Assembly: GCA_963771465.1 (NCBI GenBank)
Contig: CAVYTU010000015.1
Span: forward strand, 992,001-1,056,000
Length of the DNA stretch: 64,000 nucleotides
Source: an uncultured delta proteobacterium
GTDB taxonomy: Bacteria > Desulfobacterota > Binatia > UBA9968
Direction of reading: 5' to 3'
Made by a program: the position numbers and the translations under genes. The notes under the pieces are model-generated. The model was given only the letters and a program-made list of their open reading frames with translations, was not told the DNA's origin and made no database searches. This document shows, one piece after another, positions 21,015 to 38,739 of this stretch (its first letter is position 1; each line of letters opens with the position of its first letter).

Positions 21015-21431
21015 ATGCATCATCTCTCGCGCTTCGGCGTTTCATTGGAAGAAGATTTATTGGCCGCATTCGATCTCAGCATCGGCGGCATGGGCTACCA
21101 GAACCGCTCGGAAGCGATTCGCGATCTTATTCGGGATCACTTGATCCAAAGAAAAGTCGGTCAGAGCGATACTAACGTAATCGGCGTCGTCACCCTGGTA
21201 TACGACCACAGAATTCACCACTTGGGAGATCTCCTAGCCGACCTGCAGCACAAAGCGTCGCTGGCGGTCAATGCCAGCCTGCATATTCATCTCGATGAGC
21301 ATAATTGCCTGGAGGTCATCGTGATTCGCGGCCGCGCCGACAAGGTCCATGAGGTTGCCAGTAAACTAATCGCTACCAAGGGAGTTCAAAACGGCAAGCT
21401 GGTAACGACGACGCCGGAAATGAAACACTAA
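21015..21431 (+). CDS. nikR: Nickel-responsive transcriptional regulator NikR
   Basis: RHH N-terminus (RFGVSL, NRSEAIRDLIR), YDH, QH, HIHL..HNCLEV Ni-site motifs. Confidence 0.95.
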   Translation: MHHLSRFGVSLEEDLLAAFDLSIGGMGYQNRSEAIRDLIRDHLIQRKVGQSDTNVIGVVTLVYDHRIHHLGDLLADLQHKASLAVNASLHIHLDEHNCLEVIVIRGRADKVHEVASKLIATKGVQNGKLVTTTPEMKH

Positions 21432-21447
21432 ATTTTTTTGCACTAAG

Positions 21448-21474
21448 GTAACACGAATTTTAAATTCATACTAT
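21448..21474. promoter_or_regulatory. Putative NikR operator upstream of the TonB-dependent receptor
   Basis: GTAACAC-GAATTTTAAATTC-ATACTAT pseudo-palindrome with a 13-nt AT-rich spacer. Confidence 0.55.
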
Positions 21475-21492: not shown

Positions 21493-23538
21493 ATGCGATC
21501 GCAACTTGCTAGCACTGTCATTTTATCGTTCTGTCTTGCGCTTCAAAGCCAACCAGCTTCGGCTCAACAGACTCAGGCGAACCCGAGTTCTCCCGTCGAA
21601 GTTTACGTTTGGGGCGAGCAGCCGACATCGGCGGCAACCGAGCAGACGCGTTGGCAAAGAGATCTAGAGCTCCGTCCAACAAATACCCCTAGCGACGTGA
21701 TGCGGTTGACGCCGGGACTGATCATCGGTCAGCATCATGGCGGCGGTAAAGGCGATCAGATTTTATTTCGCGGTTTTGACTCCGACCATGGCACAGACTT
21801 CGCCGTTTTCGTCGACGGCATACCGGTTAATATGGTGAGCCACGCTCATGGGCAGGGCTACGCGGATCTTCACTGGTTGATTCCCGAAACCGTTGAACGC
21901 GTGGAAATTTATAAGGGACCCTACTTTCCTCAACTGGGTGATTTCGCCACCTCCGGCGCGATGAACATCATCACCAAGAAGAGAGATAAAGACAGCACGC
22001 TCACGCTTAGCGGCGGAAGTTATAACACCCAGCGTTATGTCGGCATATTTGCGCCGCCCGAAGGAACAATTTTAAGACCGTATATCGCCGGTGAGATATA
22101 TATGAACGACGGAGCGTTCAAGAATCCCAATGATTACATTCGCTACAATGTTCTTTCCAAATTCGGCCTCTTGCAGACCGCCAATTCCAACCTAACTTTC
22201 CTCGGAAGCTTTTTTAAGACCAGCTGGAATGCGTCCGGCGAGGTTCCGGCAAGGGAGGTTCGCAGCAGAGAGATCGGCCGCTTTGGCTCCAACGATCCGA
22301 GCGAAGGTGGAAAATCGGAACGGCAAAATTTGAGCCTGATCTATAACTACACGGACGCCAATCAGAGTTTCAACGCTCAGACTTATGTCTCCTGGTATCA
22401 ACTCCAACTCTGGTCCAACTTCACTCTGTTTCTCAACGACGAGGTGAACGGTGACGGCATCGAACAGAGAGATAAACGATTTTTAGCCGGCAACAACATC
22501 AATTACCGGCGCAATTACAAGCTGGCCGGTTTACCCATGGAGACCTTCGTTGGTTTTCAAAGCCGCTTCGATCACATCCGCGTCGGCCTCTTCAATCAAA
22601 CCGACCGACGGCGGCGGGAAACAGTCAAGAACAACTACGTCAACCAAACCAACTTGGGCTGGTTCGTTCAGCAAGAGATCCGTCCCACTTCTTGGTTGAG
22701 AACGCAGATCGGCGCGCGCATGGACAATTTCTGGTATGACGTCAAACAGATCGGTGAAGTCACCGAACCGATCTCGGGCGAAGGTTCTGCGACCATCGTC
22801 AATCCCAAGCTCAATTTTATCTTCACGCCGTTCGCTGATAACAACGTCGCCAAAGCGACCAATCTATTTCTCAACTTCGGCGGCGGCTATCACAGTAACG
22901 ACGCCCGGGTATTCGTCCAGGATCCCGATAAGAAAATTCCCCGTTTCTGGGGCGGCGAGCTCGGCGCCAAGTCACGTTTCTTTGACCGCTTGGACATGAC
23001 GCTGTCTTACTGGCGCTCCTATCTTGACAGCGAGCTGGTGTTCGTTGGCGACGCGGGCGGCTTCGAGCCCAGCGGCGCCAGCCGCCGTCATGGCGTGGAG
23101 AGCGAGTTTCGTTATGACATCCTGCCGTGGCTAACTTACGATCTCGATCTCTCGTATACCTGGGCAAAGTTTCTCAACGGCGACAAGGTTCCTTTAGCGC
23201 CGCGTTTCCTCGCGTTTACCGGAATTACCGCGCGCCACGACTCCGGAATTCAGGCACGCTGGCAAATGCGTCATATCGGGCGGCGCTATGGCATTGAAGA
23301 CGGCAGTATCATGACGCCCACTTCGACGATATTCGATTTGTTCCTAAAATATGTTTGGAAGCGCTATGAGTTCTTCGTCCAGTTCCAAAACTTGGCAAAT
23401 ACGAAATGGCGCTCGGCAGAGCACGTGTTCGAGTCGAGACTTGCGACCGAACCTTCCGGCATCGCGACTCTTGATTCCCACTTCACACCCGGCGATCCGT
23501 TCACGGTGAAGGCGGGGATTACAATTCACATGTGGTAA
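21493..23538 (+). CDS. TonB-dependent receptor, probable nickel/metal uptake
   Basis: Signal peptide, plug (FRGF, VDGIPVN, IPETVERVEIYKGPY) with His motifs QHHGGGK and HAHGQGY, C-terminal aromatic residue; follows nikR. Confidence 0.92.
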   Translation: MRSQLASTVILSFCLALQSQPASAQQTQANPSSPVEVYVWGEQPTSAATEQTRWQRDLELRPTNTPSDVMRLTPGLIIGQHHGGGKGDQILFRGFDSDHGTDFAVFVDGIPVNMVSHAHGQGYADLHWLIPETVERVEIYKGPYFPQLGDFATSGAMNIITKKRDKDSTLTLSGGSYNTQRYVGIFAPPEGTILRPYIAGEIYMNDGAFKNPNDYIRYNVLSKFGLLQTANSNLTFLGSFFKTSWNASGEVPAREVRSREIGRFGSNDPSEGGKSERQNLSLIYNYTDANQSFNAQTYVSWYQLQLWSNFTLFLNDEVNGDGIEQRDKRFLAGNNINYRRNYKLAGLPMETFVGFQSRFDHIRVGLFNQTDRRRRETVKNNYVNQTNLGWFVQQEIRPTSWLRTQIGARMDNFWYDVKQIGEVTEPISGEGSATIVNPKLNFIFTPFADNNVAKATNLFLNFGGGYHSNDARVFVQDPDKKIPRFWGGELGAKSRFFDRLDMTLSYWRSYLDSELVFVGDAGGFEPSGASRRHGVESEFRYDILPWLTYDLDLSYTWAKFLNGDKVPLAPRFLAFTGITARHDSGIQARWQMRHIGRRYGIEDGSIMTPTSTIFDLFLKYVWKRYEFFVQFQNLANTKWRSAEHVFESRLATEPSGIATLDSHFTPGDPFTVKAGITIHMW

Positions 23539-23633
23539 AGCGATGGCTCTCGGCGACGGCAATTTGATTTCCGTAGCGCGGCGAAATAAGAAACGAAGAT
23601 TACTTTGAATTTTGAAAGCTCACCCGATCAAAC

Positions 23634-24866
23634 ATGGATGAAACAGTAGTTAAACAAGACAGCACAATTCAACGCCAAACGATTTTCGCAATCGTCTGCG
23701 GCGGCCACTTTATCAACCACTTCCAGTCCGCCATGCTCGGCGTGATCTACCCGCTGATGATGAAAGAGGTCGGCATGAGCTATTTGGCGATCGCCTCGCT
23801 CGCCAGCGTCTACAACTCGCTCGGCAGCATCTTGCAGGCGTCCTACGGCTTCATCGTGCCCTATCTCCCTCGCGGTGTGATCCTCGGCATCGGCAATTGC
23901 CTGCTCGGACTCTCGGTCGTCGCCACGGGTTTCGCATCGACGTTCAATCATTTTTTCACCGCGCGCTTGATTGGCGGCATCGGCTCGAGTCCGCAGCACC
24001 CGGTTGGCTCGAGCATGCTCGCCAGCCATTTTGGTGCCGCCCGTGGCCGCGCCTTGGCGTTTCACACGACCGCAGGACAGATCGGTGGACTTTTAGCGCC
24101 GCTGTCAGCCGCGCTGTTGGTCACCTGGTTCGGTTGGCGTGGAGTCTTTTGGTTCATCGGCTCGTTGACCATCATCGTCGGGCTGATCTGTTTCGTGTTC
24201 CGCGATAGTCTTCGCAACGCGACGCAGAACAAACCGAAATCGCGCCTCGCGCCGGCCGGCTGGGAAGCCTATAAAACCTGCTTGAAGAATAAGAATATTA
24301 TGCTTGTCTCGCTGGTGTTCATGGCCGGCGCCGCCGGACGCGGCCAAGATATTAACGAGGTCTACATCATCCCCCATTTCGTCCATGATTTTCATTTGGA
24401 AATTACCCATGCCGCGTTTCTATTCACGCTCGTGCAAATCGGCAGCTTAACCGGACCGTTTGTTTGGGGCTGGATCTCAGATCGTTGCAATCGCAAGCTG
24501 GTTATCCAGGCTTCACTGTTAATGTCGGGCCTATGCACGCTCTGGCTCGCATGGCAAGAAACGGTCTCTGCCGGTCTGTTCGTCAATTTAGTGGTTTACG
24601 GCGCGGCCGTCACTTCGCGTCAGACACTTACCCAGGCTTTACTCGCCGACCTCGTCGGCGAAGAGCTCTACGACGCCGCCTTTAGCCTTTACTATTTTAT
24701 CGGTTTTATCTCGATCCCGTTTTGGACCGTGATCACCGGCGGCGTTATGACCAAGTACGGCTTCGGTCCGGCCTTCAGCGTGATTTCAATCTCGTATCTG
24801 CTCGCGATGAGTCTGCTGATGCTGCTGCGTATGCCGCGCCAGGAACAGAGCTTTGCTAATACTTGA
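23634..24866 (+). CDS. MFS transporter (FSR-like)
   Basis: About 12 hydrophobic segments, GWISDRCNRK loop motif, HFINH in TM1, QHP motif. Confidence 0.9.
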   Translation: MDETVVKQDSTIQRQTIFAIVCGGHFINHFQSAMLGVIYPLMMKEVGMSYLAIASLASVYNSLGSILQASYGFIVPYLPRGVILGIGNCLLGLSVVATGFASTFNHFFTARLIGGIGSSPQHPVGSSMLASHFGAARGRALAFHTTAGQIGGLLAPLSAALLVTWFGWRGVFWFIGSLTIIVGLICFVFRDSLRNATQNKPKSRLAPAGWEAYKTCLKNKNIMLVSLVFMAGAAGRGQDINEVYIIPHFVHDFHLEITHAAFLFTLVQIGSLTGPFVWGWISDRCNRKLVIQASLLMSGLCTLWLAWQETVSAGLFVNLVVYGAAVTSRQTLTQALLADLVGEELYDAAFSLYYFIGFISIPFWTVITGGVMTKYGFGPAFSVISISYLLAMSLLMLLRMPRQEQSFANT

Positions 24867-24887
24867 TGACCACGCCGAATATATCCT

Positions 24888-25664
24888 ATGAAAGAACAAT
24901 CCCTCGGCATTTCGCTAATTTCTTCGCTGCTCCTCCATGCTTTGGCCTTGGTCGGGGCCGCCGCATTAGTGCACCACGACAGTTTAACCAAACAAGAATT
25001 TTTCAGCGTAAAGCTAGTTGATATTCAATCATTGAGCGAAACCGCGGCAACGCCCGCTGAGAAGAAATTGCTAGCTATCGCCGAAGCGAAAAGGCCCAAC
25101 GAAATCAAACCTGCGCTGAAAAGCCAGAGTTCCGAACCTGAACCGCCAGCGACTCCCAGCGCCAAAGATGAGACCAAACCCGCCTTGCCGGCCAAGGCTG
25201 AAGCTCCCACGCCGCTCGCTACCGCTCGCGTCGAAGGCGGCGGCAGTGAAGCCGGCACAAGCGCGCTGTTTGGGCGCGGCGACGCTGGACTTCTGCCGGG
25301 CTCAGGCTCGGGTGGCGGTGGCAGCGCAGAAGTAGGATTGGGCCGCGGCTCAGGCGCGCCGGGATTTTCCTCTCAACAGGCAATCCTTAGAACCAACCGT
25401 GAAGCCAAACCGATTCAAACCGCACGCGCGATGTATCCAGCGATGGCGCTCCGCGCCGGCCTCGAAAGCGACGTGACCCTGAGAATCGAAGTCGATCCGC
25501 AAGGAACCGTCATTGAGGCGGAAATCATTAAAAGCGGCGGCGCCGGCTTCGACGACGAAGCGCTCAAAGCAGTAAAGCAATCGCGCTTCGAGCCGGCGCA
25601 AAAAGGTGGACAGACTGTGCCAGCCGAATTTACCTTCGTCTATCGTTTTCGTTTGCAGCGCTGA
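24888..25664 (+). CDS. tonB: Energy transducer TonB
   Basis: SSLLLH TM motif, Pro/Gly-rich linker, YP...FDDEALKAV...FEPA C-terminal domain. Confidence 0.9.
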   Translation: MKEQSLGISLISSLLLHALALVGAAALVHHDSLTKQEFFSVKLVDIQSLSETAATPAEKKLLAIAEAKRPNEIKPALKSQSSEPEPPATPSAKDETKPALPAKAEAPTPLATARVEGGGSEAGTSALFGRGDAGLLPGSGSGGGGSAEVGLGRGSGAPGFSSQQAILRTNREAKPIQTARAMYPAMALRAGLESDVTLRIEVDPQGTVIEAEIIKSGGAGFDDEALKAVKQSRFEPAQKGGQTVPAEFTFVYRFRLQR

Positions 25665-25854: not shown

Positions 25855-26271
25855 ATGAACCATCGCTCACTAACGACCGCAGCCGCGTTGATCCTCGCCC
25901 TACCGTTTTCCGCCGCCGGACAACACGACCACGGCAAAAGCACGACGCCGGCGGCAAAACAATCGACGGCAAAGAAATCGCCGCCGGCGCTCGCACCCGC
26001 CGAAGGCGCGAGTATCAAGATACTCACGCCCACCAAGGGACAAACTTTCAAGGGCGACAAAGTAGAGATTAGTTACAAACTCACCAAGGGTAAACGCGGC
26101 CATCACGCGCACGCCTACATTGACGGCGAGCTCATGGGCATGTTTGAAAGTGACAAAGGCACGCTCAATGGCATTAAGTCCGGTAAGCATGTTTTGGAAT
26201 TGCGCGTGGTCGCCACCGACCACAGCACCGAACTGGACGCCAGCGACAAAGTCGAGTTCACGGTGAAATGA
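25855..26271 (+). CDS. Small exported His-containing Ig-like protein (DUF4399-like)
   Basis: Signal peptide, QHDH N-terminus, GHHAHAYIDG, GKHVLEL...DH motifs. Confidence 0.7.
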   Translation: MNHRSLTTAAALILALPFSAAGQHDHGKSTTPAAKQSTAKKSPPALAPAEGASIKILTPTKGQTFKGDKVEISYKLTKGKRGHHAHAYIDGELMGMFESDKGTLNGIKSGKHVLELRVVATDHSTELDASDKVEFTVK

Positions 26272-26338
26272 ACCCAAAGTCCGTGCTGCCCATAGAGCTT
26301 GCGCTGATGGGTTCGAACGACTAACATCGCAATCCACG

Positions 26339-26734
26339 ATGTACAGCGGCCAACACATATCAAGTTTCATGCGCGGCCTGTCCTTGCACGCCGCCGTCGC
26401 ATTGCTGCTTTTCTTGGTTCTCTCGCCACCCCATCGGGTGCACCATATTTTCGAGCAATTCACTGCGCCGCAATCGATCGGCCTTGCTAACGCAAGCGTT
26501 CACGATCATGGCGACAGCCACCACGAAAATCATTCACCGGTGCCAGCGCCCACTGCGCAGCCAAACGATTGCGCCGTACTCGCTGCAACACAAAACGCCC
26601 ATTCGCTGGCCGCCTGGTCTTTCGATTTGACAGTTTTCACCGCGGCAGTCGAACACACACAAATAAATTCGACCGAATCTGCGTTCTCATTCAACTTCGC
26701 ACCCCGCTCCCAACGCGCGCCGCCGCGCGTCTAA
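26339..26734 (+). CDS. DUF2946-like exported peptide with a C-terminal RAPP arrest motif
   Basis: Hydrophobic signal region, HRVHH, HDHGDSHHENH, single Cys, ends in PRSQRAPPRV*. Confidence 0.75.
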   Translation: MYSGQHISSFMRGLSLHAAVALLLFLVLSPPHRVHHIFEQFTAPQSIGLANASVHDHGDSHHENHSPVPAPTAQPNDCAVLAATQNAHSLAAWSFDLTVFTAAVEHTQINSTESAFSFNFAPRSQRAPPRV

Positions 26735-26870
26735 GCTTTCATTCGCAACTTGCATTCTTAACCCGGGCAAGCCCAGCGCGTTTTTCACTAAACCCGTTGG
26801 GCAACACGCCCGATGAGAAGTTGTTCCAGCGCGTCCAATGCGATGCGATTCCATGCGATGGAGGAAGGCG

Positions 26871-28190
26871 ATGATTGGAAAATTTAGCAGGGTATCACTG
26901 TTTATATTCTCATTGCAGGTTTATGGTTGCACCTCGGAGCTAATTCACCCCGCCACTGCCTCTCGCTCAGCGTCAGTGGAATTCACCGAGGAAGTCCGCC
27001 TCGGCGACAGCGAGCGAAATCCCTCTACACCATTTCTGCGTTACGCCCCCGATGGCCGCTTGTTTGCGGTCTGGACAGAAGAGCATGACAAACCTTGGCC
27101 CAATGGCCGCCCTACGGGTCACCAGCACGGCGGTGACCGCGCCGCATCGCCGCTGCGCAACGCGATGGTTGCCGCATCCGTCGACAGCGGTAAGACGTGG
27201 TCCGTGCCACGGCGTGTCAATAGCGCTGTCGAAGCGGTGCAAGGCGAAGAAAATGGTCCTAAGATCGCCGTCGGCGGCGGCAAGCGCGCTTACATCGTCT
27301 GGTCGATTCCCGGCGAGAAAGGCGACAAGACCCGCGCTAATATTCGCTTCGCCATGGATGACGGCAACGGCGGCTTCACGCCGGCGCAAACTTTGAATGA
27401 AGTCAAAGATGCCGGACGCTTTCCGATTATTGAAATGGCTCCGGACGGCAATCTTTTAATCGCTTGGATCGACCGGCGCGTGGACGGACCCAATCCGCGT
27501 CAGCTCTATCTCATGCGCCTGAATCCAAATGGCCGGGCGATGACGAAAAACTATCAAGTTGGCGAAGGACTTTGCGAGTGCTGCAAGCTGGGCATCACGT
27601 TCGCGGACGGCGGCAAGACGGTCTACATGGTTGACCGTGAGGTGGATGGCAAAAAGATTCGCAATCACGTACTGCGAAAGTCCACCGACGGCGGCACAAC
27701 TTTCAGCACGCCGGTGGAAATCAGCAATGACGGCTGGCAAGTTCCCTCCTGCCCGCATTCCGGTCCAAGTCTCGGCCGCGATAGTCGCGGTCAACTCCAC
27801 GTCAGTTGGTTTACCCTCGGCCGGTCGGAAGAAGAAGCAGGAATTTACTACAGTGTGTCGCGAGACGATGGCAAGAGCTTCTCGCCGCGCCAGCTCGTGC
27901 ACGCCAATAGCGCGCCGGAAACGCTCTACAACAACCTCGTCGTCGGGGACGACGACACGGTCTATTTGGCGTGGAGCAATCTCGATGGCAACAACAAAGC
28001 GCAAATCTATTTTCGCACGCTTGCAGCCGATGGCCGAACGTGGAGCGCGATCCAGCAAGTGAGCAACGCCAATGGGAATGCCAGCCGGCCAAGTCTGGCG
28101 CTACACCGTAACCAGCTCCATATCGCCTGGACTGAAATCGACGGCGAGGATTCGCGAGTGGTGATAAAAAACGCTACGGTCCAGCGATGA
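26871..28190 (+). CDS. BNR/Asp-box (sialidase-like) beta-propeller lipoprotein
   Basis: GGAGG RBS, VYGC lipobox, Asp boxes (SVDSGKTW, STDGGTTF, SRDDGKSF), CECC and CPH motifs. Confidence 0.85.
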   Translation: MIGKFSRVSLFIFSLQVYGCTSELIHPATASRSASVEFTEEVRLGDSERNPSTPFLRYAPDGRLFAVWTEEHDKPWPNGRPTGHQHGGDRAASPLRNAMVAASVDSGKTWSVPRRVNSAVEAVQGEENGPKIAVGGGKRAYIVWSIPGEKGDKTRANIRFAMDDGNGGFTPAQTLNEVKDAGRFPIIEMAPDGNLLIAWIDRRVDGPNPRQLYLMRLNPNGRAMTKNYQVGEGLCECCKLGITFADGGKTVYMVDREVDGKKIRNHVLRKSTDGGTTFSTPVEISNDGWQVPSCPHSGPSLGRDSRGQLHVSWFTLGRSEEEAGIYYSVSRDDGKSFSPRQLVHANSAPETLYNNLVVGDDDTVYLAWSNLDGNNKAQIYFRTLAADGRTWSAIQQVSNANGNASRPSLALHRNQLHIAWTEIDGEDSRVVIKNATVQR

Positions 28191-28732
28191 AGTTATCAAG
28201 AATGCACACTGGCTTATTCGCAGCACTTGTCAGCACCATGCTGACATCGGTGTGCGCATCATTGAGTTCAGCCCAACACTCGCACGAAATTAAGACTAAT
28301 GCCGCGCCTAGCGTAGGTGCGCCGGCCATCGCTTTTGATCTGAAATCTCTCGACGGCAAGTCGGTGGGATTAACAAGCTTCCGCGGCAAACCGTTGGTGC
28401 TCAATTTCTTCGCCAGCTGGTGCGATCCCTGCCGCGACGAGATACCGTTGATCAACGATCTCGCGTCCAAAGCAGCCAAAGACGGCTACAGCGTGCTTGG
28501 CATTGCCGTCGAAGACAGCCGCGCCGCGGTGAGCGAATTCGCCAAAGAAACCAACCTGGTTTTCCCCATCGCTCTGGACCTAAACAGCACTGTCAAACGC
28601 GCCTATCGAATCTTCGGCCCGCCGGCGACGTTTTTCGTCGACGGCCAAGGAATCATTCGCGACGTCGTTCTCGGCCCGATAACACCCGAGCGCGCCAAAG
28701 AAGCGATGAAAAGAGTGGGTGCTGTGCGTTAA
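28187..28732 (+). CDS. TlpA-family thiol-disulfide oxidoreductase
   Basis: LNFFASWCDPC, cis-Pro (GPP) motif, signal sequence; overlaps the upstream stop (ATGA). Confidence 0.92.
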   Translation: MKLSRMHTGLFAALVSTMLTSVCASLSSAQHSHEIKTNAAPSVGAPAIAFDLKSLDGKSVGLTSFRGKPLVLNFFASWCDPCRDEIPLINDLASKAAKDGYSVLGIAVEDSRAAVSEFAKETNLVFPIALDLNSTVKRAYRIFGPPATFFVDGQGIIRDVVLGPITPERAKEAMKRVGAVR

Positions 28733-28766: not shown

Positions 28767-29648
28767 ATGATTCGCTACCGAGTTCTTTTTTACAGCCTTT
28801 GCGTGAGCGCCGTTACCATCGCTGCATATCATTTCGGATTTAGTTTCGACTGGCGGACCAACGATGCCACTCAAACGGTTAAGGCGTACTTGCAAAAGAC
28901 TTACGCCCGCGACTTTAAAAATGCGTATCAATACCTATCGATCGCTGATCGACAGTCTCGCGGCGAAGCCAGTTATGTCGAGAGCCAGGATGCGTATAGC
29001 GGATTCGCGCTGGAAGCGGTAACAAAGCTCGCCAGTTTCATGCAAGTCTGGCCGATTGAACAGAGTCGAGACGACGAGCGCCGTCGGATCAAGGTCGGCT
29101 ACCGAGTTCCCGCACCGGCGGATCTTGCCGGTCTGCTATTGAACTGGGATGAAGCACAGCTCAACGCTCTGCCCCGTGATCGGCAGCAGCAAATCCTAGC
29201 CGAGATCGACGCGCGCAGAAAGGATAGCAAGCTGCTTATGATCGAAGGCCAGGAATCCCTTGAACTCAGGAAAGACGGAAAAGCCTGGAAGATTTTTCTC
29301 GATTGGGCGTCAGGAACGACGGTGAAGCTGAAAACCCAACTGCCTAAGTCCGGCGAGCTTGAAGTCCGTTTTGCCCAGACCGAAGTGATCGCCAAAAACG
29401 ACGAGTTGTTCCTGGTAAATTTGGTTATCAAGAACCGCGGTTCTCGCACTGTAACGTTTACCGTCGGTCACTTGATAGACCCAGATGCAATCGCAAACGA
29501 TCTAGAATTGGTTGAATGCGGCCTACTCACTCCCGTCACACTTCAGGCTGGGAGCACACAAGAATTTTCCATGGCGTATCTGCTCGGCAGCGCTGCGCGG
29601 CAAAACTACCGGGAGTTCAGCCTAACCTATGAGTTCAAGCTCAAGTAG
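28767..29648 (+). CDS. Membrane-anchored protein with divergent Cox11/CtaG-like C-terminal domain, paralog 1
   Basis: N-terminal anchor, YL..YARDF domain, C-terminus VGH...LELVECGLL...LTYEF. Confidence 0.75.
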   Translation: MIRYRVLFYSLCVSAVTIAAYHFGFSFDWRTNDATQTVKAYLQKTYARDFKNAYQYLSIADRQSRGEASYVESQDAYSGFALEAVTKLASFMQVWPIEQSRDDERRRIKVGYRVPAPADLAGLLLNWDEAQLNALPRDRQQQILAEIDARRKDSKLLMIEGQESLELRKDGKAWKIFLDWASGTTVKLKTQLPKSGELEVRFAQTEVIAKNDELFLVNLVIKNRGSRTVTFTVGHLIDPDAIANDLELVECGLLTPVTLQAGSTQEFSMAYLLGSAARQNYREFSLTYEFKLK

Positions 29649-29760
29649 CGATGTTCTAGCGAGCGGTCATGCTGGTGACCATTAGAAATTTATGGTTAAT
29701 TGCTGAAGTGCCCATGGTTCTTGGCGCGATCCGTCCCCGCGTCACTAAGAGGGCGATCGC

Positions 29761-30711
29761 ATGATGGAAACAATCCGCAACAAGATGCGTTCAGAGGAAT
29801 ATGCCGTGCCGCTAATCGCCGGCCTGAGAACCTGCACGTTACAAGCAGCTATCATTCTCATCGTATCGTTGTTCGGAAACTGCACCATGACCAGCACAGC
29901 TGCGCAGGCGCAAGCCCCGCGCGATCCGGCGCTCGTGCTGCAAACCTACCTGCGCGCTACCTATGCGCGCGATTTCGTTGAAGCGTACCGCATCATCTCG
30001 ACAGCCGACCGCAATGTTCGGGACCTGAACCGATACGTCCAGCAGCGCGGTCCGTTCGCCGGCTTCACCTTGGAAGCGGCAAAAAAGCTCAGCGAGTCGA
30101 TTCAAATCAAATTCATAGAGCGTAAGGACACGCCAAATCGCATGCAGGCGGTTATCAACTACAAAGTTCCCGACCCGAGCAAACTTTCACCCTTGTTGCT
30201 CAATTGGGATGCCCGCCGGCTGAACTCCTTGGTGCCAGATGAGCGCAAAAGAATTCTTGACACCATCGACAAGAAAAAACACGACGGCTCCTTGGAGATG
30301 AGCGAGGGCGAAGAAAAGTTGGAGCTCGTCAGAGAAAATGACGAGTGGCGGATATTTTTGAATTGGGCTGCCGGCGTCAAAATCCCGTTTCGAATGGATC
30401 TGTCAAAGTCGGCTGACTTGGAGGTGAGCCTTTCGAAAAACGAGATTGTCACGCAGCCGGGCGAGTTGTTTGAAATAATCCTGACTATCAAAAATCGAAC
30501 CAACCAACCGATCACCGCGCGCATCGGCCATGTTGTCGAGCCGAATAATCTCGCTGACTATCTGGATTTCGTCCAATGCGGTTTTCTTTTGCCCGTGACT
30601 CTTGGACCAGCCAGTGAAGAGCAATTTTCCGGAACCTATTTGCTTAGAGGCAGCCTTCCCGAAGGCGTGCGCCAGCTCAATCTGACCTACGATTTTCGCC
30701 TGCTGAAATAA
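29761..30711 (+). CDS. Divergent Cox11/CtaG-like protein, paralog 2
   Basis: YLRATYARDF; QPGE...KN...IGHVVEP..LADYLDFVQCGFL...LTYDF. Confidence 0.8.
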   Translation: MMETIRNKMRSEEYAVPLIAGLRTCTLQAAIILIVSLFGNCTMTSTAAQAQAPRDPALVLQTYLRATYARDFVEAYRIISTADRNVRDLNRYVQQRGPFAGFTLEAAKKLSESIQIKFIERKDTPNRMQAVINYKVPDPSKLSPLLLNWDARRLNSLVPDERKRILDTIDKKKHDGSLEMSEGEEKLELVRENDEWRIFLNWAAGVKIPFRMDLSKSADLEVSLSKNEIVTQPGELFEIILTIKNRTNQPITARIGHVVEPNNLADYLDFVQCGFLLPVTLGPASEEQFSGTYLLRGSLPEGVRQLNLTYDFRLLK

Positions 30712-30818
30712 AAGCATGATCAGCTTGGCGCCGCTAGCAGCGCAGTTTTTTTTATGTTTAATTGATTCAACGGAAACGTTTTCCATTTTGCGCATTGGAT
30801 GAATGGGGAGGTAATTCT

Positions 30819-31379
30819 ATGATCCGCCGCAAGTTGCTTGTCGTTCTGCTCACACTCGCCGTCGCTAATATCGCCGCGCTGAATGCTTTGCGCGCGCAGG
30901 ACACGATCTCCGAGAACAAAAAAATTGTCCCGTATGTCCCGTCGCCGCAGTTCGTCGTCGATAAGATGATTGAACTCGCCGGTGTTAAGCCCGGAGATTT
31001 AGTCTTTGACCTCGGTTCCGGCGACGGCCGCATCGTTGTCACCGCCGCGAAGAAGGGCGCCAAAGCGGTCGGCTTTGAGATCGATGGCGATCTCGTCGGC
31101 GAATCGCGGGCGAATATAAAGAAAGCCGGCGTCGAAGCGAACGCGGAAATTCGCAACCAAGACATACTCACCGTCGATTTTTCCGACGCCACCGTCGTCA
31201 CCATGTATCTGCTGCCCGACGTCAACTTGCAACTCAAACCGAAACTGCTGAGTCAGTTGAAACCCGGCGCGCGCATCGTTTCCCACTCCTTCGACATGGG
31301 CGACTGGAAGCCCGACAAAGTCGAACGGATCGAAGGACGAACCATTTTTCTTTGGACCATCCCGGCCAAGGGACGTTAA
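30819..31379 (+). CDS. Class I SAM-dependent methyltransferase with a signal peptide (FAM173/aKMT-like)
   Basis: VPYVPSP, DLGSGDGR, VVTMYL, LKPGARIVSHSF motifs; GGAGG RBS. Confidence 0.88.
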   Translation: MIRRKLLVVLLTLAVANIAALNALRAQDTISENKKIVPYVPSPQFVVDKMIELAGVKPGDLVFDLGSGDGRIVVTAAKKGAKAVGFEIDGDLVGESRANIKKAGVEANAEIRNQDILTVDFSDATVVTMYLLPDVNLQLKPKLLSQLKPGARIVSHSFDMGDWKPDKVERIEGRTIFLWTIPAKGR

Positions 31380-31432
31380 AACGTGCGGCGCGTTGAAGCG
31401 ATCGCGCGCCATCCGCGTCAAACCATCTGCCG

Positions 31433-32320
31433 ATGATCAAGAAAATTATTCTTGCGTCACTGAGCTGCCTCCTGCTCACTTTGCCGCTGCTCTATTGGCT
31501 TAACCGGATCGCTGCCTTGCCGCAGCACGAACCGATTCAGACGCTGACTCAGTACGTCCGCTTTCTCTACGCGCGTGACTTTCGCCAGGCCTACCGATTC
31601 ATCTCTGTGGAAGATCAGCGGCTTAAAAAATCGCACGACTACGTGCGCGAACGCCAGCCGTTTACCGGCTTTGCTCTGGATGTGGCGCGCAGGCTCGCCG
31701 GCCTGATCGAAGTCCGACCTTTGTCGAGCGCAGCGGACGGCGAACGCAACCGGCTCACGGTCGCCATGAAACTGCCGGATGCCAACAGTGTTGCTCCCTT
31801 GCTGCATGACTGGGATGACAAACGGCTCAACACTTTGTCGGCGACGGAGCGCAAGCATATTCTAACCACCATCGACAGTTGGGCCGACGCTAAGAAACTG
31901 CCAATGATCGAAGGCAAAGAAAGTTTCGTCATGATCAAAGAAGGTTCCAAGTGGAAAGTCTTTGTCGACTGGGCCGCCGGAGCACAGGTACAGTTTGCGG
32001 CCGCGCTGCCGGCGGGAAATGAAATCAGCGCCGAACCGACAACCAAAGAGACGGTCGCGCGCTCCGGCGATTCGTTTACGATCGGCTTCAAAGTCGCCAA
32101 CCCAACGAGCAAAGAGATCGTGACGCGCATCGTTCATCGCGTCGAACCCAAAGAGCTGGCGCCCTATTTGGATTTGGTCGAGTGCGCGCTCTTACTGCCG
32201 GTGCGAGTGGGGCCGGGTGAAGAGCAGCTGTTCAACAGCACCTATCTCGTCCGCGGCGACTTACCCGACGGTGCGAAAACGCTCAAAGTCACTTATGAGT
32301 TCAAGGTTGAGAGTAACTGA
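31433..32320 (+). CDS. Divergent Cox11/CtaG-like protein, paralog 3
   Basis: YVRFLYARDF; IVHRVEPKELAPYLDLVECALL...VTYEF. Confidence 0.8.
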   Translation: MIKKIILASLSCLLLTLPLLYWLNRIAALPQHEPIQTLTQYVRFLYARDFRQAYRFISVEDQRLKKSHDYVRERQPFTGFALDVARRLAGLIEVRPLSSAADGERNRLTVAMKLPDANSVAPLLHDWDDKRLNTLSATERKHILTTIDSWADAKKLPMIEGKESFVMIKEGSKWKVFVDWAAGAQVQFAAALPAGNEISAEPTTKETVARSGDSFTIGFKVANPTSKEIVTRIVHRVEPKELAPYLDLVECALLLPVRVGPGEEQLFNSTYLVRGDLPDGAKTLKVTYEFKVESN

Positions 32321-32915
32321 ACAGCTTGGCGCCGCGATGCTCGCGGTCGCTTTGCTACCATCGACAGCTCGGTCGCATATCCCGATCCCGCCCAAACAGC
32401 CAAGCGAAATCGGCCGGCGCGTCGTCAAAACCGCTGTGCCCGATTTCAAACTGACCGATCAGAACGGTAAACAATTCCAACTCAGTAGCAAACGGGGAAA
32501 TCTAGTTCTCACGACGTTTATCTTCACCACCTGCCCCGACGTATGTCCGCTATTTACCGCCAAGTTTGCCGCGATCCAGCGCGCCTTGGACGACAGAAAA
32601 TTCAAAGACTATTGGTTGCTCAGCATCACCACCGACCCGGAGCATGACAACGCAGCGGCATTGAAGGATTACGCCAACCGGTTCAAAGCCGACTCAGCCC
32701 ACTGGTCGTTTCTCACCGGCACGCGGTCGGATTTGACAAAAACGTGGAAAGCCTTTGGCGTCAACGTCACCAGGACCGAAGCTGGACAGGTTTTTCACAC
32801 TGCACTCACCACTCTCATCGATCGGCGCGGCAACCGCCGAGTCGATTATTACGGTGACAAATGGCTCGACCAAGAAGTGCTCAAGGATATCCAGTGGCTG
32901 AGCTCGCAAAAATGA
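32295..32915 (+). CDS. SCO1/SenC family protein
   Basis: FTTCPDVCP, TDPEHD, VFHT; start uncertain (32295 or 32337). Confidence 0.9.
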   Translation: MSSRLRVTEQLGAAMLAVALLPSTARSHIPIPPKQPSEIGRRVVKTAVPDFKLTDQNGKQFQLSSKRGNLVLTTFIFTTCPDVCPLFTAKFAAIQRALDDRKFKDYWLLSITTDPEHDNAAALKDYANRFKADSAHWSFLTGTRSDLTKTWKAFGVNVTRTEAGQVFHTALTTLIDRRGNRRVDYYGDKWLDQEVLKDIQWLSSQK

Positions 32916-33478
32916 TCCCGCGCCGAGCGTTAACGCTTTTTCTTACACTGCTATTCACTCATTGCCTTGTAACACCGGCAAGCGCAGCCCAGCGCGAGCA
33001 AGGCGTGCTGGAGATTCAAATCAAAGATCATCGCGACGCGATCGGCGATTTCGCGAAGCTAAATATCACCATCGAGAAATTCTCAATTAGCCCGAAACCA
33101 GCGTTAAAGATTTGGCAACCCAACTGGAAAGAAATCAGCTCCACATCCTCACCGGTTGACTTGACCCAATATGTAGGAAACAAAACTGCAAGAATATTTC
33201 GCGGCACGATTGATGCCGGATCGTTTGATGCATTTCACCTAAAGATCAAAACAATCGACGGACTCTTGAAGAAAAAACAGCGCTCCGTACGGGTGAAAGA
33301 CAAGACCGGTCCGGTTAAACTTTCTTTCGACATCAAACCAAAGGGCGAAACCATTTTGATTCTCGACTTCGTGGTATCGGATATGTCCGATCACCCACCG
33401 CTCGGTTATGAACTCGGAATACGGGGGCTCGAACTTTTTACCAACGGCAAGCTCGTTGAGAAAATCCCGCCGGGGTAA
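32912..33478 (+). CDS. Exported DUF4382-like protein
   Basis: Signal peptide, LEIQIKD...LNITI...ILDF pattern; overlaps the SCO stop (ATGA). Confidence 0.65.
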   Translation: MIPRRALTLFLTLLFTHCLVTPASAAQREQGVLEIQIKDHRDAIGDFAKLNITIEKFSISPKPALKIWQPNWKEISSTSSPVDLTQYVGNKTARIFRGTIDAGSFDAFHLKIKTIDGLLKKKQRSVRVKDKTGPVKLSFDIKPKGETILILDFVVSDMSDHPPLGYELGIRGLELFTNGKLVEKIPPG

Positions 33479-37203: not shown

Positions 37204-37848
37204 ATGAACGATTCAAAACGTTTCTTGTTATTCAGCACCGCGGTCGTCGTCCTGGGGATCGTGCTCGGCACGGCGCTTTGGTTGAAGCTCGAACCGCAGC
37301 GTCAACTCGGGGCGTGGAATGACAACGGCCCGGACGGGCTAAAGCAGTACGGCGCGGTGCCGGAATTTTCCTTGATGGAGCGGAGCGGCGCCGGCGTCGA
37401 TCTTGCCCAGTTGCGTGGCAAGATCTGGGTTGCTGACTTTATCTACACGACTTGCACCGACACCTGTCCGTTGCAAACCGGCATGATGGCAAGGTTGCAA
37501 GAAGAGTACGCCTCCAAGCCCGATGTCCATTTAGTTTCGGTCACCGTCGATCCCGAACGTGACACGCCCCAGACTTTGTCGCTCTACGCCGCAAAGCATG
37601 GAGCGGATGCCAAGCGCTGGTTATTTTTAACCGGACAACGAGATCGCATCATGAATCTGATTCGCGACGGTTTTCATTTAAGCGTGGCAACCTTGCCCAA
37701 CAGCGCCGAGCCAACCGGCATGATCCCGCACAGCCCGCGCTTTGTTCTGATCGACAAAGAGGCGCGTATCCGTGGCTATTATGACAGCCGCGAACTCGAA
37801 GCGTTTGTCCGGCTGAAAAATGACATTGACACGTTATTGAAAAGTTAA
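37204..37848 (+). CDS. SCO1/SenC family protein
   Basis: N-terminal TM, YTTCTDTCP, VDPERDT, IPHS. Confidence 0.93.
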   Translation: MNDSKRFLLFSTAVVVLGIVLGTALWLKLEPQRQLGAWNDNGPDGLKQYGAVPEFSLMERSGAGVDLAQLRGKIWVADFIYTTCTDTCPLQTGMMARLQEEYASKPDVHLVSVTVDPERDTPQTLSLYAAKHGADAKRWLFLTGQRDRIMNLIRDGFHLSVATLPNSAEPTGMIPHSPRFVLIDKEARIRGYYDSRELEAFVRLKNDIDTLLKS

Positions 37849-37863: not shown

Positions 37864-38739
37864 ATGGCGCAAGAGACCAGAAGCAAGAAAGGTAAGCAAC
37901 CGGCGGCAAAAGGATTATTACGCGCCGGACCGAATTGGCCGCTGTTTATTCTTGCTCTGCTCGGCATGGTGTTGTCCGGCTACCTCACTTTTACCGCTTG
38001 GCAAGGCAGGCTCGTCGCCTTTTGCACCGAAGGCGCCGGCTGCGACCTCGTGCTTAACAGCCGTTGGTCGACGCTGTTCGGCATGCCGACATCTTTTTGG
38101 GGTTTTCTCACCTATGGTTTGCTCGCCGCGGTGGCATGGAACCGTTATGCCGATAATCAGTGGCGCTGGGCTTGGGTCATTTCGCTCTTCGGCTTGCTGT
38201 TCAGTTCCTATTTGACAGCTATTTCATTTTTTGAGCTCAAGGCCGCTTGTCCCTATTGCCTCGCGTCGCTCGGCATTATGGCGGCGATCTTCGTCATGAC
38301 AACCCTGCAACGTCCGGCGAATCTACCCAAATTTTCTTGGGGGCCATGGCTCGGCAAATCACTCGGCGCGGCGGCCGCAGTGATCATCGCGCTTCATCTC
38401 TATTTCGCCGGGTATTGGGGCGACGCGCCGGGACCGGAAGATCCCTGGGTCAGGAATCTGGCTGAACATTTGACCCGGTCAGACGTCAAATTCTACGGCG
38501 CCTCATGGTGCCCGCATTGCCAAGATCAGAAAAAATTGTTCGGCAGCTCTGTGAACCGAATACCATATATCGAATGTAGCCCAGGCGGGCCCAATACGCC
38601 CCAAGCAGCGGAATGTAAGACAAAGGGTATTCAGACCTATCCCACTTGGATCGTTAACGGTCAGCGGCATACCGGCGTGTTACCCCTCGATACCTTGGCC
38701 CAACTGAGCAAATTCAACTACCAGGGAGGAAAGCCGTAA
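37864..38739 (+). CDS. VKOR fused to a C-terminal thioredoxin-like domain
   Basis: FCTEGAGC..VLNS, CPYC, then FYGASWCPHC and YPTW. Confidence 0.92.
   Translation: MAQETRSKKGKQPAAKGLLRAGPNWPLFILALLGMVLSGYLTFTAWQGRLVAFCTEGAGCDLVLNSRWSTLFGMPTSFWGFLTYGLLAAVAWNRYADNQWRWAWVISLFGLLFSSYLTAISFFELKAACPYCLASLGIMAAIFVMTTLQRPANLPKFSWGPWLGKSLGAAAAVIIALHLYFAGYWGDAPGPEDPWVRNLAEHLTRSDVKFYGASWCPHCQDQKKLFGSSVNRIPYIECSPGGPNTPQAAECKTKGIQTYPTWIVNGQRHTGVLPLDTLAQLSKFNYQGGKP

What the first reader, a model, noticed from the sequence alone, without database searches (positions are those of the whole stretch)
28767..32320. Three Cox11/CtaG-like paralogs with the CFC copper motif replaced by one Cys plus a conserved His, fused to an unknown domain
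Seen: all three C-terminal domains follow the Cox11 pattern (PGE..N..P...Y/DL...C...L.P...LTY.F). The motif reads ECGL, QCGF and ECAL instead of CFC, and each has a His about 15 residues upstream (VGH/IGH/IVH). All share an N-terminal YARDF..AY..S..D domain and L..WD...LN.L. Known: Cox11 binds Cu(I) through CFC cysteines. Inference: altered Cys/His metal site, possibly Ni, perhaps acting as a hetero-oligomer.
Basis: partly seen in the sequence, partly recalled or inferred. Interest (0 to 1): 0.8.

Follow-up and report, generated by a model that had tools for sequence, protein, structure and literature searches.

The report
Remodelled Cox11-like metal chaperones, three copies
Three neighbouring genes encode membrane-anchored proteins that join an NTF2-like domain to a Cox11-type copper-chaperone domain whose usual two-cysteine copper motif is reduced to one cysteine plus a conserved histidine, and they sit in a metal-uptake gene island headed by a nickel-type regulator.

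Summary
The best solved match is apoCox11, Z 11.4. The CFC motif reads C-G-L, C-G-F and C-A-L, and a His lies 16 residues upstream.

Both residues are conserved across the family. His is present in 330 of 338 stored relatives that cover the site. The His is not a replacement for the lost Cys, because sister lineages keep QCFCF and the same His, and are often fused to DUF4382.

The three copies are old orthogroups kept across the genus. The conserved module is Cox11-like / DUF4382 / Sco1 / VKOR-thioredoxin. It lies next to a metal importer and, in two of three families, a bona fide NikR.

The genome has no canonical Cox11 but does have Caa3-type CtaG. Oxidase copy number does not track paralog number.

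My best reading is periplasmic metallochaperones of a metal-acquisition island, most likely handling copper. Nickel is a serious rival. The His-Cys distance could not be measured, and hetero-oligomerisation remains untested. This is a new variant of a known kind.

The parts
28767..29648 (+). par1: N-terminal helix, NTF2-like domain and Cox11-like domain. H235 is at 29469-29471 and C251 at 29517-29519; the motif is E-C-G-L.
29761..30711 (+). par2: same architecture as par1. H257 is at 30529-30531 and C273 at 30577-30579; the motif is Q-C-G-F.
31433..32320 (+). par3: helix at residues 2-28, NTF2-like domain at about 28-180, Cox11-like domain at about 177-295. H235 is at 32135-32137 and C251 at 32183-32185; the motif is E-C-A-L. 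This is the copy adjacent to Sco1-DUF4382, as in single-copy relatives.
30762..31379 (+). Class I SAM-methyltransferase-like gene with a hydrophobic N-terminus (probable ATG at 30819). It is interleaved with the paralogs in all genus loci examined.
28187..28732 (+). TlpA/ResA-like periplasmic thioredoxin (CDPC), directly upstream of par1.
32217..32915 (+). Sco1/SenC paralog b (CPDVC). The real start is probably ATG 32295 or 32337, abutting the par3 stop.
32861..33478 (+). DUF4382 beta-sandwich protein with invariant KDHR and SDHP motifs. It is homologous to the C-terminal extension fused to CFC-type relatives.
37204..37848 (+). Sco1/SenC paralog c (CTDTC).
37864..38739 (+). VKOR fused to a thioredoxin-like domain (CPYC, CPHC). 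It is the conserved last gene of the module.
21015..21431 (+). NikR (RHH plus NikR_C), the only copy in the genome. It lies upstream on the same strand, at the head of the island.
21447..21460 (+). GGTAACACGAATTT in the nikR-to-receptor intergenic region. The GTAACACGAA core recurs at the same place in relatives and is a candidate operator half-site.
21493..25664 (+). TonB-dependent receptor (21493-23538), MFS transporter (23634-24866) and TonB (24888-25664).
25855..28190 (+). His-rich secreted Ig-like protein (25855-26271), His-rich DUF2946-like protein (26339-26734) and a BNR beta-propeller with a CECC motif (26838-28190).
19861..21023 (-). Sco1/SenC paralog a (CADVC; 19861-20472) and a c-type cytochrome (20469-21023), divergent from nikR.

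Best explanation
The three genes encode membrane-anchored, periplasm-facing metallochaperones derived from Cox11. Each has a single N-terminal helix, then an NTF2-like domain inserted between the anchor and a Cox11-type Ig-like domain.

In the ancestral form, still found as a single copy in sister families, the metal site is QCFCF plus a family-specific His. This would be a Cys2His set like that of Sco1. In this genus the gene was triplicated into three stable orthogroups, and the second Cys was lost, leaving one Cys and one His per chain.

The proteins belong to a conserved module: Cox11-like, DUF4382, Sco1 and VKOR-thioredoxin. Here the module is expanded with a TlpA-like reductase and two more Sco1 genes. 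It is attached to a metal importer, either a TonB receptor with MFS or a ZnuABC-type system, and is usually headed by NikR.

I infer that they receive a thiophilic metal ion in the periplasm, most likely Cu(I)/Cu(II). They would pass it between the importer, the Sco1 proteins and client protein(s), with TlpA and VKOR-Trx keeping the thiols in the right redox state. With only Cys+His per chain, the site would need to be completed by a second chain or a partner.

They are probably not the classical CuB-inserting Cox11 of cytochrome oxidase.

Shown: architecture, fold, motif, conservation, paralog history and gene neighbourhood. Inferred: metal binding, metal identity, direction of transfer and partners.
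For: Fold and motif:
- The C-domain best matches apoCox11: Foldseek E 1.5e-5, TM 0.69; VIA Z 11.4.
- The model has a helix at residues 2-28.
- The N-domain is NTF2-like.

Conservation:
- In A2 (53 full-length sequences), C251 is invariant and H235 is at least 90% conserved.
- His is present in 330 of 338 stored relatives that cover the site. Of these, 156 have CxC and 182 have a single Cys.
- 25 of 27 genus rows show His plus a single Cys; the other 2 are frameshifted. 8 of 8 sister-family rows show His plus QCFCF.

Paralog history:
- The three orthogroups have SH-aLRT support of 98, 90 and 84. The genus clade and the outgroup clade each have support of 100.

Neighbourhood:
- Synteny is Cox11-like-DUF4382-Sco1-VKOR in 13 of 18 loci. 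The 5 without a VKOR hit are L027, L029, L030 and the two short contig-end pieces L031 and L032; L032 also lacks DUF4382 and Sco1 hits.
- 33 of 87 relatives are 460-489 aa. 12 of them carry a precomputed PF14321 (DUF4382) hit, which indicates fusion to DUF4382.
- All three Sco1 paralogs keep CxxxC. TlpA has CDPC, and VKOR carries a thioredoxin domain with CPHC.
- Importer genes are adjacent in all three families.

Not the CuB chaperone:
- Caa3_CtaG is present in this genome and in 5 of 5 relatives checked.
- The paralogs are far from the COX1 genes.
- COX1 copy number does not track paralog number. G015 has 3 COX1 and 1 paralog; G022 has 1 COX1 and 3 paralogs.

Literature: canonical Cox11 is a dimer with a Cu2S4 cluster, and each monomer contributes two sulfurs from its CysXCys motif (PMC6696091, passages read). 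TlpA reduces Sco/CoxB thiols, and TonB receptors and MFS transporters import Cu (PMC7558416, passages read).
Against: - No metal binding has been shown for any member of this family.
- The His-Cys distance could not be measured, because no model coordinates are available.
- The island is headed by a protein that passes NCBI's NikR equivalog model (171.7 bits against a cut-off of 105). It has the HxHx5C pattern, which points to nickel rather than copper.
- No known copper regulator, PCuAC or obvious cuproenzyme client was found next to the genes.
- Losing one Cys of the CxC pair would be expected to weaken Cu(I) binding.
- par1 falls below the Pfam cut-off.
- All three paralogs fall far below the NCBIfam Cox11 equivalog cut-off: 17.7-35.6 bits against 162.
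Confidence: 0.5

Rival explanations
1. The proteins are nickel chaperones. The whole island would be a NikR-repressed nickel (or Ni/Co) acquisition system. The Cys+His sites of the Cox11-like proteins, the Cys2His sites of the Sco1 proteins and the His-rich secreted proteins would carry Ni(II) from the outer-membrane receptor to the inner-membrane importer.
For: - NikR passes the equivalog model and is the only NikR in the genome.
- It lies on the same strand, 7-18 kb upstream of the paralogs, in 11 genus genomes where both fall on one contig, G000 included. It lies 3.5-4.6 kb upstream in 3 of 3 genomes of a second family.
- In that second family the arrangement is a tight same-strand array: NikR-ZnuA-ABC-ABC3-Cox11-like-DUF4382-Sco1-VKOR.
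- A conserved GTAACACGAA motif sits between nikR and the transporter gene in the window and in 2 of the 4 related loci with nikR (L027, L035). L034 and L036 carry variants, ATAACACGAA and GCACGAA.
- Two His-rich secreted proteins are encoded in the island.
- A Cys/His site suits Ni(II).
- NikR-controlled TonB-dependent nickel uptake is known in H. pylori (search listing and abstracts only).
Against: - [NiFe] hydrogenase was found in 0 of 13 genus genomes. Urease was found in 2 of 13, not in this genome. No LarA was found. No major nickel client is therefore evident in a genome that is 99.4% complete.
- A third family has the Cox11-like-DUF4382-Sco1-VKOR module next to ABC importer genes, but NikR was found in 0 of 11 of its genomes.
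- G008 has NikR away from the paralogs.
- Cox11, Sco1 and TlpA are all copper-pathway families.
- Relatives linked to NikR keep the Cu(I)-type CFC motif.
Confidence: 0.22
2. The proteins are genuine Cox11 orthologs that insert CuB into heme-copper oxidases. The three copies would each serve a different oxidase.
For: - They are the only PF04442 hits in the genome.
- The CFC-type relative is the only PF04442 hit in 5 of 5 relatives checked.
- The genome has two intact COX1 genes plus a third, fragmented COX1 locus.
- All 25 genus genomes have COX1.
Against: - The CxC pair that canonical Cox11 uses for its Cu2S4 cluster is broken (PMC6696091).
- Caa3_CtaG is present in all 6 genomes checked.
- The genes are never next to cox genes in the loci examined.
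- Copy numbers do not match: G015 has 3 COX1 and 1 paralog, G022 has 1 and 3, G008 has 1 and 4.
- NCBIfam equivalog scores are 17.7-35.6 bits against a cut-off of 162.
Confidence: 0.13
3. The proteins have a non-metal role. The conserved Cys-His pair would be a catalytic or redox dyad acting on envelope substrates, for example thiol-disulfide or persulfide chemistry or an acyl-enzyme. The NTF2-like pocket would bind a small molecule.
For: - One Cys plus one His is a common catalytic dyad.
- The NTF2-like domain has near-invariant polar and aromatic residues: D61 and W174 at 90% or more in A2, and Y41, Y46, D49 and Y54 at 80% or more of the 62 rows.
- The neighbours are thiol-redox proteins (TlpA, VKOR-Trx).
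Against: - Ancestral relatives keep the complete Cu-type CFC motif.
- Three Sco1 genes, a metal importer and a metal regulator surround the paralogs.
- No enzyme fold was detected; only Ig-like and NTF2-like folds were found.
Confidence: 0.07

Closest known systems
Cox11/CtaG CuB chaperone (S. meliloti CtaG, PDB 1SO9/1SP0; R. sphaeroides and yeast Cox11)
   Same: - Single N-terminal membrane anchor.
- Periplasm-facing Ig-like beta domain that superposes with Z 11.4.
- The first Cys of the CFC motif is retained at the aligned position.
- Pfam PF04442 hits.
   Different: - The second Cys of CxC is replaced by Leu or Phe.
- A conserved His sits where 1SO9 has Phe.
- An NTF2-like domain of about 150 residues is inserted between the anchor and the Ig domain.
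- There are three paralogs, with no linkage to cox genes.
- The neighbours are Sco1, DUF4382, VKOR, an importer and NikR.
- Scores fall far below the NCBIfam equivalog cut-off.
CFC-type NTF2-Cox11(-DUF4382) proteins of sister families. These are uncharacterised and are labelled 'cytochrome c oxidase assembly protein' or hypothetical in Binatia, 'Deltaproteobacteria' and Methylomirabilales MAG records.
   Same: - Same two-domain architecture.
- Same conserved His.
- Same DUF4382-Sco1-VKOR neighbours and an adjacent importer.
   Different: - They keep QCFCF.
- They are single-copy.
- They are often fused to DUF4382.
- The importer is ZnuABC-type instead of TonB receptor with MFS.
Sco1/SenC copper chaperones
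   Same: - Membrane-anchored and periplasmic.
- Thiol plus His ligand set. That Sco1 uses CxxxC plus a distal His is recalled; the CxxxC motif itself was seen.
- Encoded side by side with the paralogs and dependent on TlpA-type reductants (PMC7558416).
   Different: - The fold is unrelated: thioredoxin-like for Sco1, Ig-like for the paralogs.
- The paralogs offer only one thiol per chain.
Accessory periplasmic metallochaperones of importers, such as AztD with AztC and ZinT with ZnuA (recalled, not checked here)
   Same: Periplasmic metal-binding proteins encoded beside a cluster A-I ABC importer. The binding protein in relatives scores best to AztC, but below its cut-off.
   Different: The folds are different. 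Those systems handle zinc through His/Asp sites, not thiols.
NikR-controlled TonB-dependent nickel uptake in Helicobacter pylori (search listing and abstracts only)
   Same: NikR, a TonB-dependent receptor and TonB lie together in one regulatory unit.
   Different: No Cox11- or Sco1-type proteins are reported there. H. pylori has urease and hydrogenase as nickel clients, which were not found in this genome.

Membership tests
Cox11/CtaG (PF04442; NCBIfam NF003465) | Sequence match to the family model above the curated cut-off | tested here: inconclusive
   Pfam scores are par2 33.1 and par3 36.2 bits (cut-off 25), but par1 is 20.8 bits. NCBIfam equivalog NF003465 scores are 17.7, 33.8 and 35.6 bits against a cut-off of 162. 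The domain-level model is met by 2 of 3; the equivalog model is not met by any.
Cox11/CtaG | Ig-like beta fold of the soluble domain as in 1SO9/1SP0 | tested here: met
   The par3 model has pLDDT 94.9. 1so9 is the top Foldseek hit, with E 1.5e-5 and TMt 0.69. 1sp0 is the top hit of 48,161 chains, with Z 11.4, rmsd 3.2 A and 118 residues aligned; the next hit has Z 9.7.
Cox11/CtaG | Single N-terminal membrane anchor with the soluble domain outside the cytoplasm | tested here: inconclusive
   The model has one N-terminal helix at residues 2-28, and all three paralogs have hydrophobic N-termini. Topology was not tested. The soluble part does not follow the anchor directly, because an NTF2-like domain intervenes.
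Cox11/CtaG | CysXCys (CFC) copper motif that supplies two sulfurs per monomer to a Cu2S4 cluster (PMC6696091) | tested here: not met
   The motifs are C-G-L, C-G-F and C-A-L. All 25 readable copies from the genus have a single Cys.
Cox11/CtaG | Role in CuB insertion, or linkage with cytochrome oxidase genes | not testable with these tools
   Function cannot be tested here. Context argues against this role. The COX1 genes are at C15:533746 and C12:101876, far from the window. Caa3_CtaG is present. Copy numbers are unrelated.
NTF2-like superfamily (N-terminal domain) | Alpha+beta cone fold | tested here: met
   Residues 28-180 align to many NTF2-like structures at Z 7.4-9.2, including 9vxg, 3k7c, 3gwr and CaMKII hub domains. 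This is fold-level only. No Pfam family matched. The ESM Atlas gave a DUF4878 lead at 0.75.
NikR (neighbour at 21015-21431) | RHH plus NikR_C domains above the equivalog cut-off, and high-affinity-site residues | tested here: met
   NF003381 scores 171.7 bits against a cut-off of 105. PF08753 matches at E 2.3e-25. The sequence shows H-I-H-L-D-E-H-N-C, with a His 11 residues upstream. The correspondence to E. coli H76/H87/H89/C95 is recalled, not tested.
Sco1/SenC (three neighbours) | PF02630 match and CxxxC motif | tested here: met
   PF02630 E-values are 2.9e-26, 4e-26 and 1.1e-27. The motifs are CADVC, CPDVC and CTDTC.

The most novel reading that the evidence does not exclude
Cox11- and Sco1-type thiol chaperones, until now known only from copper delivery to oxidases, are used here as a NikR-controlled periplasmic relay for metal import. 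If the metal is nickel, the Cys+His site of the three paralogs would be a natural conversion of a Cu(I) Cys2 site into a Ni(II)-handling site. These would then be the first nickel-carrying Cox11/Sco proteins.
Probability: 0.2. Interest if true: 0.85.

Novelty: new variant of a known kind. Interest (0 to 1): 0.6.

Why it matters
Cox11 is treated as a single-purpose CuB chaperone defined by its CFC motif. This lineage of uncultured soil and sediment bacteria (Binatia, as named by the sources) has rebuilt it in several ways:
- It added an NTF2-like domain and a family-specific His.
- In one genus it dropped one of the two copper-binding cysteines.
- It kept three diverged copies.
- It wired them to Sco1 proteins, thiol-redox enzymes, a metal importer and a nickel-type regulator.

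This gives a natural series (Cys2, then Cys2His, then CysHis) on one fold for studying how metal-site chemistry and selectivity evolve. It also raises a testable question: can Cox11/Sco modules serve metal uptake, or a metal other than copper? No paper linking these elements was found. The searches were Cox11+DUF4382, Binatia+copper+cytochrome c oxidase, and NikR+Cox11 (0 papers each).

Tried and rejected
- **Hetero-oligomer test.** Complex prediction was run on the soluble parts of par1, par2 and par3, with orthogroup alignments A3-A5 and par3 as the partner. It gave no verdict: score 0.00 against a mark of 0.32, and the controls were not run. This says nothing for or against binding.
- **The search for related loci.** With alignment A2 it failed because no stretch was conserved enough. 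With P0174 in genome contigs it found no confirmed relative.
- **Canonical Cox11 for comparison of the His column.**
  - A domain-only search (P0174 residues 195-305) returned 158 hits. The 120 listed run from 180 to 489 aa.
  - I checked only the two shortest, P0378 and P0386, and both are fragments.
  - None of the 151 phylum genomes sampled has any other PF04442 hit.
  - The statement that canonical Cox11 lacks the His therefore rests on the single 1SO9 alignment.
- **NikR operator.** The 7-mer GTAACAC is not significantly enriched in the window: 6 found, 2.6 expected, and 5 of 100 shuffles reach 6. The only other genomic copy of TAACACGAAWTT lies inside a coding region. The operator idea rests only on positional conservation in relatives. 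That this resembles a published NikR half-site is recalled, not checked.
- **N-domain-only relatives elsewhere in the phylum.** The 4 such genomes out of 301 sit in unrelated contexts and gave no functional clue.
- **DUF4382 fold.** It is a generic beta-sandwich. The best match is Z 8.2 to a Bacteroides fimbrial protein, which is not informative. No PDB sequence match was found for DUF4382 or the BNR protein. The His-rich protein gave a CopC hit at E 0.21, which is not significant.
- **TonB receptor.** It shows only plug-domain similarity to BtuB and Cir, and no OprC match was listed at E up to 1e-5.
- **MFS transporter.** NCBIfam gave it only generic MFS hits. By eye on its sequence I saw no MxxxM or HxxxM; that these are the CcoA motifs is recalled.
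- **Promoter and terminator scan.** Results were at chance level.
- **PmoA and Ni-SOD searches.** Both were negative, but their controls rang nowhere, so they are uninformative.
- **Earlier findings of this scan.** None were found.
- **Paper not held.** PMC2994652 (Cox11 mutagenesis) is not in the library.

Full report
**1. Observation**

ORFs of 293, 316 and 295 aa lie at 28767-29648 (par1), 29761-30711 (par2) and 31433-32320 (par3), all on the + strand. par1 is 37% identical to par2 and 32% identical to par3.

Pfam PF04442 (CtaG_Cox11) matches the last ~110 residues of each (cut-off 25 bits):
- par1: E 4.2e-4, 20.8 bits, below the cut-off.
- par2: E 6.9e-8, 33.1 bits.
- par3: E 8.1e-9, 36.2 bits.

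NCBI's Cox11 equivalog model is missed by a wide margin, at 17.7-35.6 bits against 162.

The HMMER alignment to the solved S. meliloti CtaG (1so9, E 0.03) puts par3 C251 on the first Cys of CFCF and L253 on the second. It puts H235 on the Phe of ATFNVTP. The codons were verified. The only correction is that 'PGE' is literally present only in par2.

**2. Fold**

An AlphaFold2 model of par3 was built on 53 full-length relatives (alignment A2). Nine listed representatives that looked frameshifted or truncated were left out: P0127, P0141, P0146, P0148, P0167, P0180, P0183, P0220 and P0255. The model has pLDDT 94.9 and pTM 0.84.

- Foldseek against the PDB ranks apoCox11 (1so9) first: E 1.5e-5, TM 0.69 on the target, rmsd 2.7 A over 112 columns.
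- An all-against-representatives search ranks 1sp0 first of 48,161 chains: Z 11.4, rmsd 3.2 A, 118 of 131 residues, model residues 177-295. The next hit has Z 9.7.
- Residues 28-180 align to many NTF2-like proteins at Z 7.4-9.2.

It sits between an N-terminal helix (residues 2-28) and the Cox11-like domain.

**3. Conservation and family structure**

- A word-indexed search found 527 relatives at E up to 0.001. The best 120 all carry PF04442. Where named, they are called hypothetical, 'cytochrome c oxidase assembly protein', Candidatus Binatia or Deltaproteobacteria MAG.
- A profile search of 1.84 billion representatives found 480 at E up to 0.001.
- Among 59 listed representatives of 270-340 aa plus the three paralogs, His is present in 54 of 62 and Cys in 58 of 62. 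After removing broken sequences, C251 is invariant and H235 is at least 90% conserved in A2.
His is present in 330 of these. 156 have Cys-x-Cys and 182 have a single Cys.

The family thus has two forms. The CxC form carries the same His: 150 of 156 stored CxC-type sequences, and 8 of 8 copies from sister families, read ARH...QCFCF. The His is therefore older than the loss of the second Cys and is not its replacement.

Of the 87 relatives of a CxC-type protein, 33 are 460-489 aa. 12 of those carry a precomputed DUF4382 hit at the C-terminus. Their C-terminal extension ends like the window's separate DUF4382 protein.

**4. Paralog history**

A maximum-likelihood tree was built of 32 copies from the window and 18 fetched loci. 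Three truncated or frameshifted rows were left out. The tree shows three orthogroups, each holding copies from several genomes of the genus:
- par1 group: SH-aLRT 98.
- par2 group: SH-aLRT 90.
- par3 group: SH-aLRT 84.

They lie inside a genus clade (support 100) that is sister to the CxC clade (support 100). The par3 group is the one that keeps the ancestral position next to Sco1-DUF4382. All 25 readable genus copies have His plus a single Cys; 2 further rows are frameshifted.

Of 41 related genomes, 35 have the family: 24 of 24 in the genus (mostly 2-3 adjacent copies), 3 of 5 in one sister family and 7 of 11 in the other (single copy). These counts include one unpublished genome, G005.

Outside the order the family was not found:
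- Of 301 genomes sampled across the phylum, only the window's own has full-length matches. Four others match the NTF2-like part alone, in unrelated contexts.
- Of 151 sampled genomes, none but the window's own has any PF04442 hit.

**5. Neighbourhood**

In the window, the + strand reads as follows:

| Gene | Coordinates |
|---|---|
| NikR | 21015-21431 |
| TonB-dependent receptor | 21493-23538 |
| MFS transporter | 23634-24866 |
| TonB | 24888-25664 |
| His-rich secreted Ig-like protein | 25855-26271 |
| His-rich DUF2946-like protein | 26339-26734 |
| BNR beta-propeller | 26838-28190 |
| TlpA/ResA-like thioredoxin | 28187-28732 |
| par1 | 28767-29648 |
| par2 | 29761-30711 |
| Methyltransferase-like gene | 30762-31379 |
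| par3 | 31433-32320 |
| Sco1b | 32217-32915 |
| DUF4382 | 32861-33478 |
| PMT_2 glycosyltransferase | 33701-35245 |
| Sco1c | 37204-37848 |
| VKOR-thioredoxin | 37864-38739 |

A methyltransferase lies on the other strand between the glycosyltransferase and Sco1c. Sco1a and a c-type cytochrome are divergent from nikR.

All three Sco1 proteins keep CxxxC.

tblastn over the 18 fetched loci shows the core Cox11-like-DUF4382-Sco1-VKOR in 13 of them, drawn from all three families. The 5 without a VKOR hit are L027, L029, L030 and the two short contig-end pieces L031 and L032; L032 also lacks DUF4382 and Sco1 hits. The larger TonB/MFS/His-rich/BNR/TlpA set appears in the genus.

In a sister family the array is NikR-ZnuA-ABC-ABC3-(His-rich)-Cox11-like-DUF4382-Sco1-VKOR, tightly packed on one strand. 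In the third family, ABC and ABC-3 genes abut the fused Cox11-like-DUF4382 gene.

The importer type changes between families, but the linkage persists. This argues for one functional system.

**6. NikR**

The window's NikR passes NCBI's equivalog model, at 171.7 bits against a cut-off of 105. It is the only NikR in the genome. It shows H-x-H-x5-C with a His 11 residues upstream. Matching these to the E. coli nickel ligands is from memory.

NikR was found in 21 of 41 relatives: 15 of 24 in the genus, 5 of 5 in one sister family and 0 of 11 in the other.
- Where NikR and the paralogs share a contig, NikR is on the same strand 7-18 kb upstream in 11 genus genomes, G000 included.
- In 3 genomes of the sister family it is 3.5-4.6 kb upstream.
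- G008 is an exception. Four genomes have the two on different small contigs.

A GTAACACGAA core sits between nikR and the next gene in the window and in L027 and L035. Variants occur in L034 and L036. As a bare 7-mer it is not enriched in the window.

**7. Which metal, and which job**

For copper:
- The Cox11 fold is present.
- The ancestral CFC motif is kept in relatives.
- Three canonical Sco1 genes and a TlpA-type reductase are in the island. TlpA is known to reduce Sco and CoxB thiols.
- TonB receptors and MFS transporters are established copper importers (PMC7558416, passages read).

For nickel:
- NikR heads the island.
- His-rich secreted proteins are encoded in it.
- The ligand set is Cys/His.

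Against nickel:
- [NiFe] hydrogenase was found in 0 of 13 genus genomes.
- Urease was found in 2 of 13, not in this genome.
- No LarA was found.
- One family has the module without NikR.

Against the classical CuB job:
- The CxC pair is broken. Canonical Cox11 is a dimer with a Cu2S4 cluster to which each monomer contributes two sulfurs from its CysXCys motif (PMC6696091, passages read).
- Caa3-type CtaG is present in this genome and in 5 of 5 relatives checked.
- There is no linkage to COX1.
- COX1 copy number is unrelated to paralog number. G015 has 3 COX1 and 1 paralog, G022 has 1 and 3, and G008 has 1 and 4.
- PCuAC was not found.

**8. Mechanism proposed**

Shown: three anchored proteins with an NTF2-like domain and a Cox11 fold, a conserved Cys and His, and embedding in a conserved Sco1/thiol-redox/importer island.

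Inferred: they bind a thiophilic metal ion in the periplasm through Cys plus His, with the site completed by a second chain or a partner such as Sco1 or DUF4382. They pass the ion along a relay between importer and client(s). TlpA and VKOR-Trx would control thiol redox state. I take copper as most likely and nickel as the main rival.

The triplication into stable orthogroups suggests division of labour, either different partners or a hetero-oligomer. The one complex prediction gave no verdict and is not evidence either way.

**9. Comparison and novelty**

The proteins work like, and descend from, Cox11. They fail its defining CxC feature and its equivalog model, so I do not file them as Cox11 orthologs. 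They are a new variant: an NTF2-Cox11 family with a family-specific His, here in a single-Cys, triplicated form.

Full-text searches found no paper combining Cox11 with DUF4382, Binatia with copper and cytochrome c oxidase, or NikR with Cox11 (0 papers each). Supplements were not consulted. The Cox11 supplement of PMC8239418 (mentioned in a passage read) may describe Cox11 variants and was not seen.

**10. Verdict**

- Observation: confirmed.
- Interpretation: partly supported.
- Interest: 0.6.

Noticed in passing
window 21015-21431 and 21432-21492: A bona fide NikR gene, the only one in the genome, heads the island. A GGTAACACGAATTT motif lies in the 61-bp gap before the TonB-receptor gene, and its GTAACACGAA core recurs at the same place in related genomes.
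   Followed up: partly
window 26838-28190: A 450-aa BNR/sialidase-like beta-propeller with a C-E-C-C-K motif and an S-C-P-H motif, conserved at about 70% identity in the genus clusters between the His-rich proteins and TlpA. It could be a metal-binding client or a chaperone. It has no PDB sequence match.
   Followed up: partly
window 30762-31379: A class I methyltransferase-like protein with a signal-peptide-like N-terminus. Its best NCBIfam hit is the archaeal protein-lysine N-methyltransferase, at 135.9 bits against a cut-off of 200. It is always interleaved with the paralogs. A SAM-dependent enzyme outside the cytoplasm would be odd.
   Followed up: no
window 25855-26271 and 26339-26734: Two small secreted His-rich proteins, with motifs GHHAHAY and HDHGDSHHENH. 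They are conserved in the island, and the first also lies upstream of the Cox11-like gene in a sister family (L035).
   Followed up: partly
window 32861-33478; alignment A6: The DUF4382 protein has two invariant Asp-His motifs (KDHR, SDHP) on a beta-sandwich. This is a possible His/Asp metal site in a domain of unknown function that is fused to Cox11-like proteins in relatives.
   Followed up: partly
G000 C12:47757-48717 (outside the window): A third COX1 locus matches in five pieces across frames, with one stop. This is either a frameshifted gene or assembly error. Caa3_CtaG lies 3 kb downstream.
   Followed up: no
window 8793-14294 (- strand): A complete rRNA operon (5S, 23S, two tRNAs, 16S).
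   Followed up: yes
L033 (G020:C45): In this related genome all three paralogs, Sco1b, the BNR protein, the MFS transporter and the TonB receptor appear split by frameshifts. This is probably sequencing error rather than decay.
   Followed up: no
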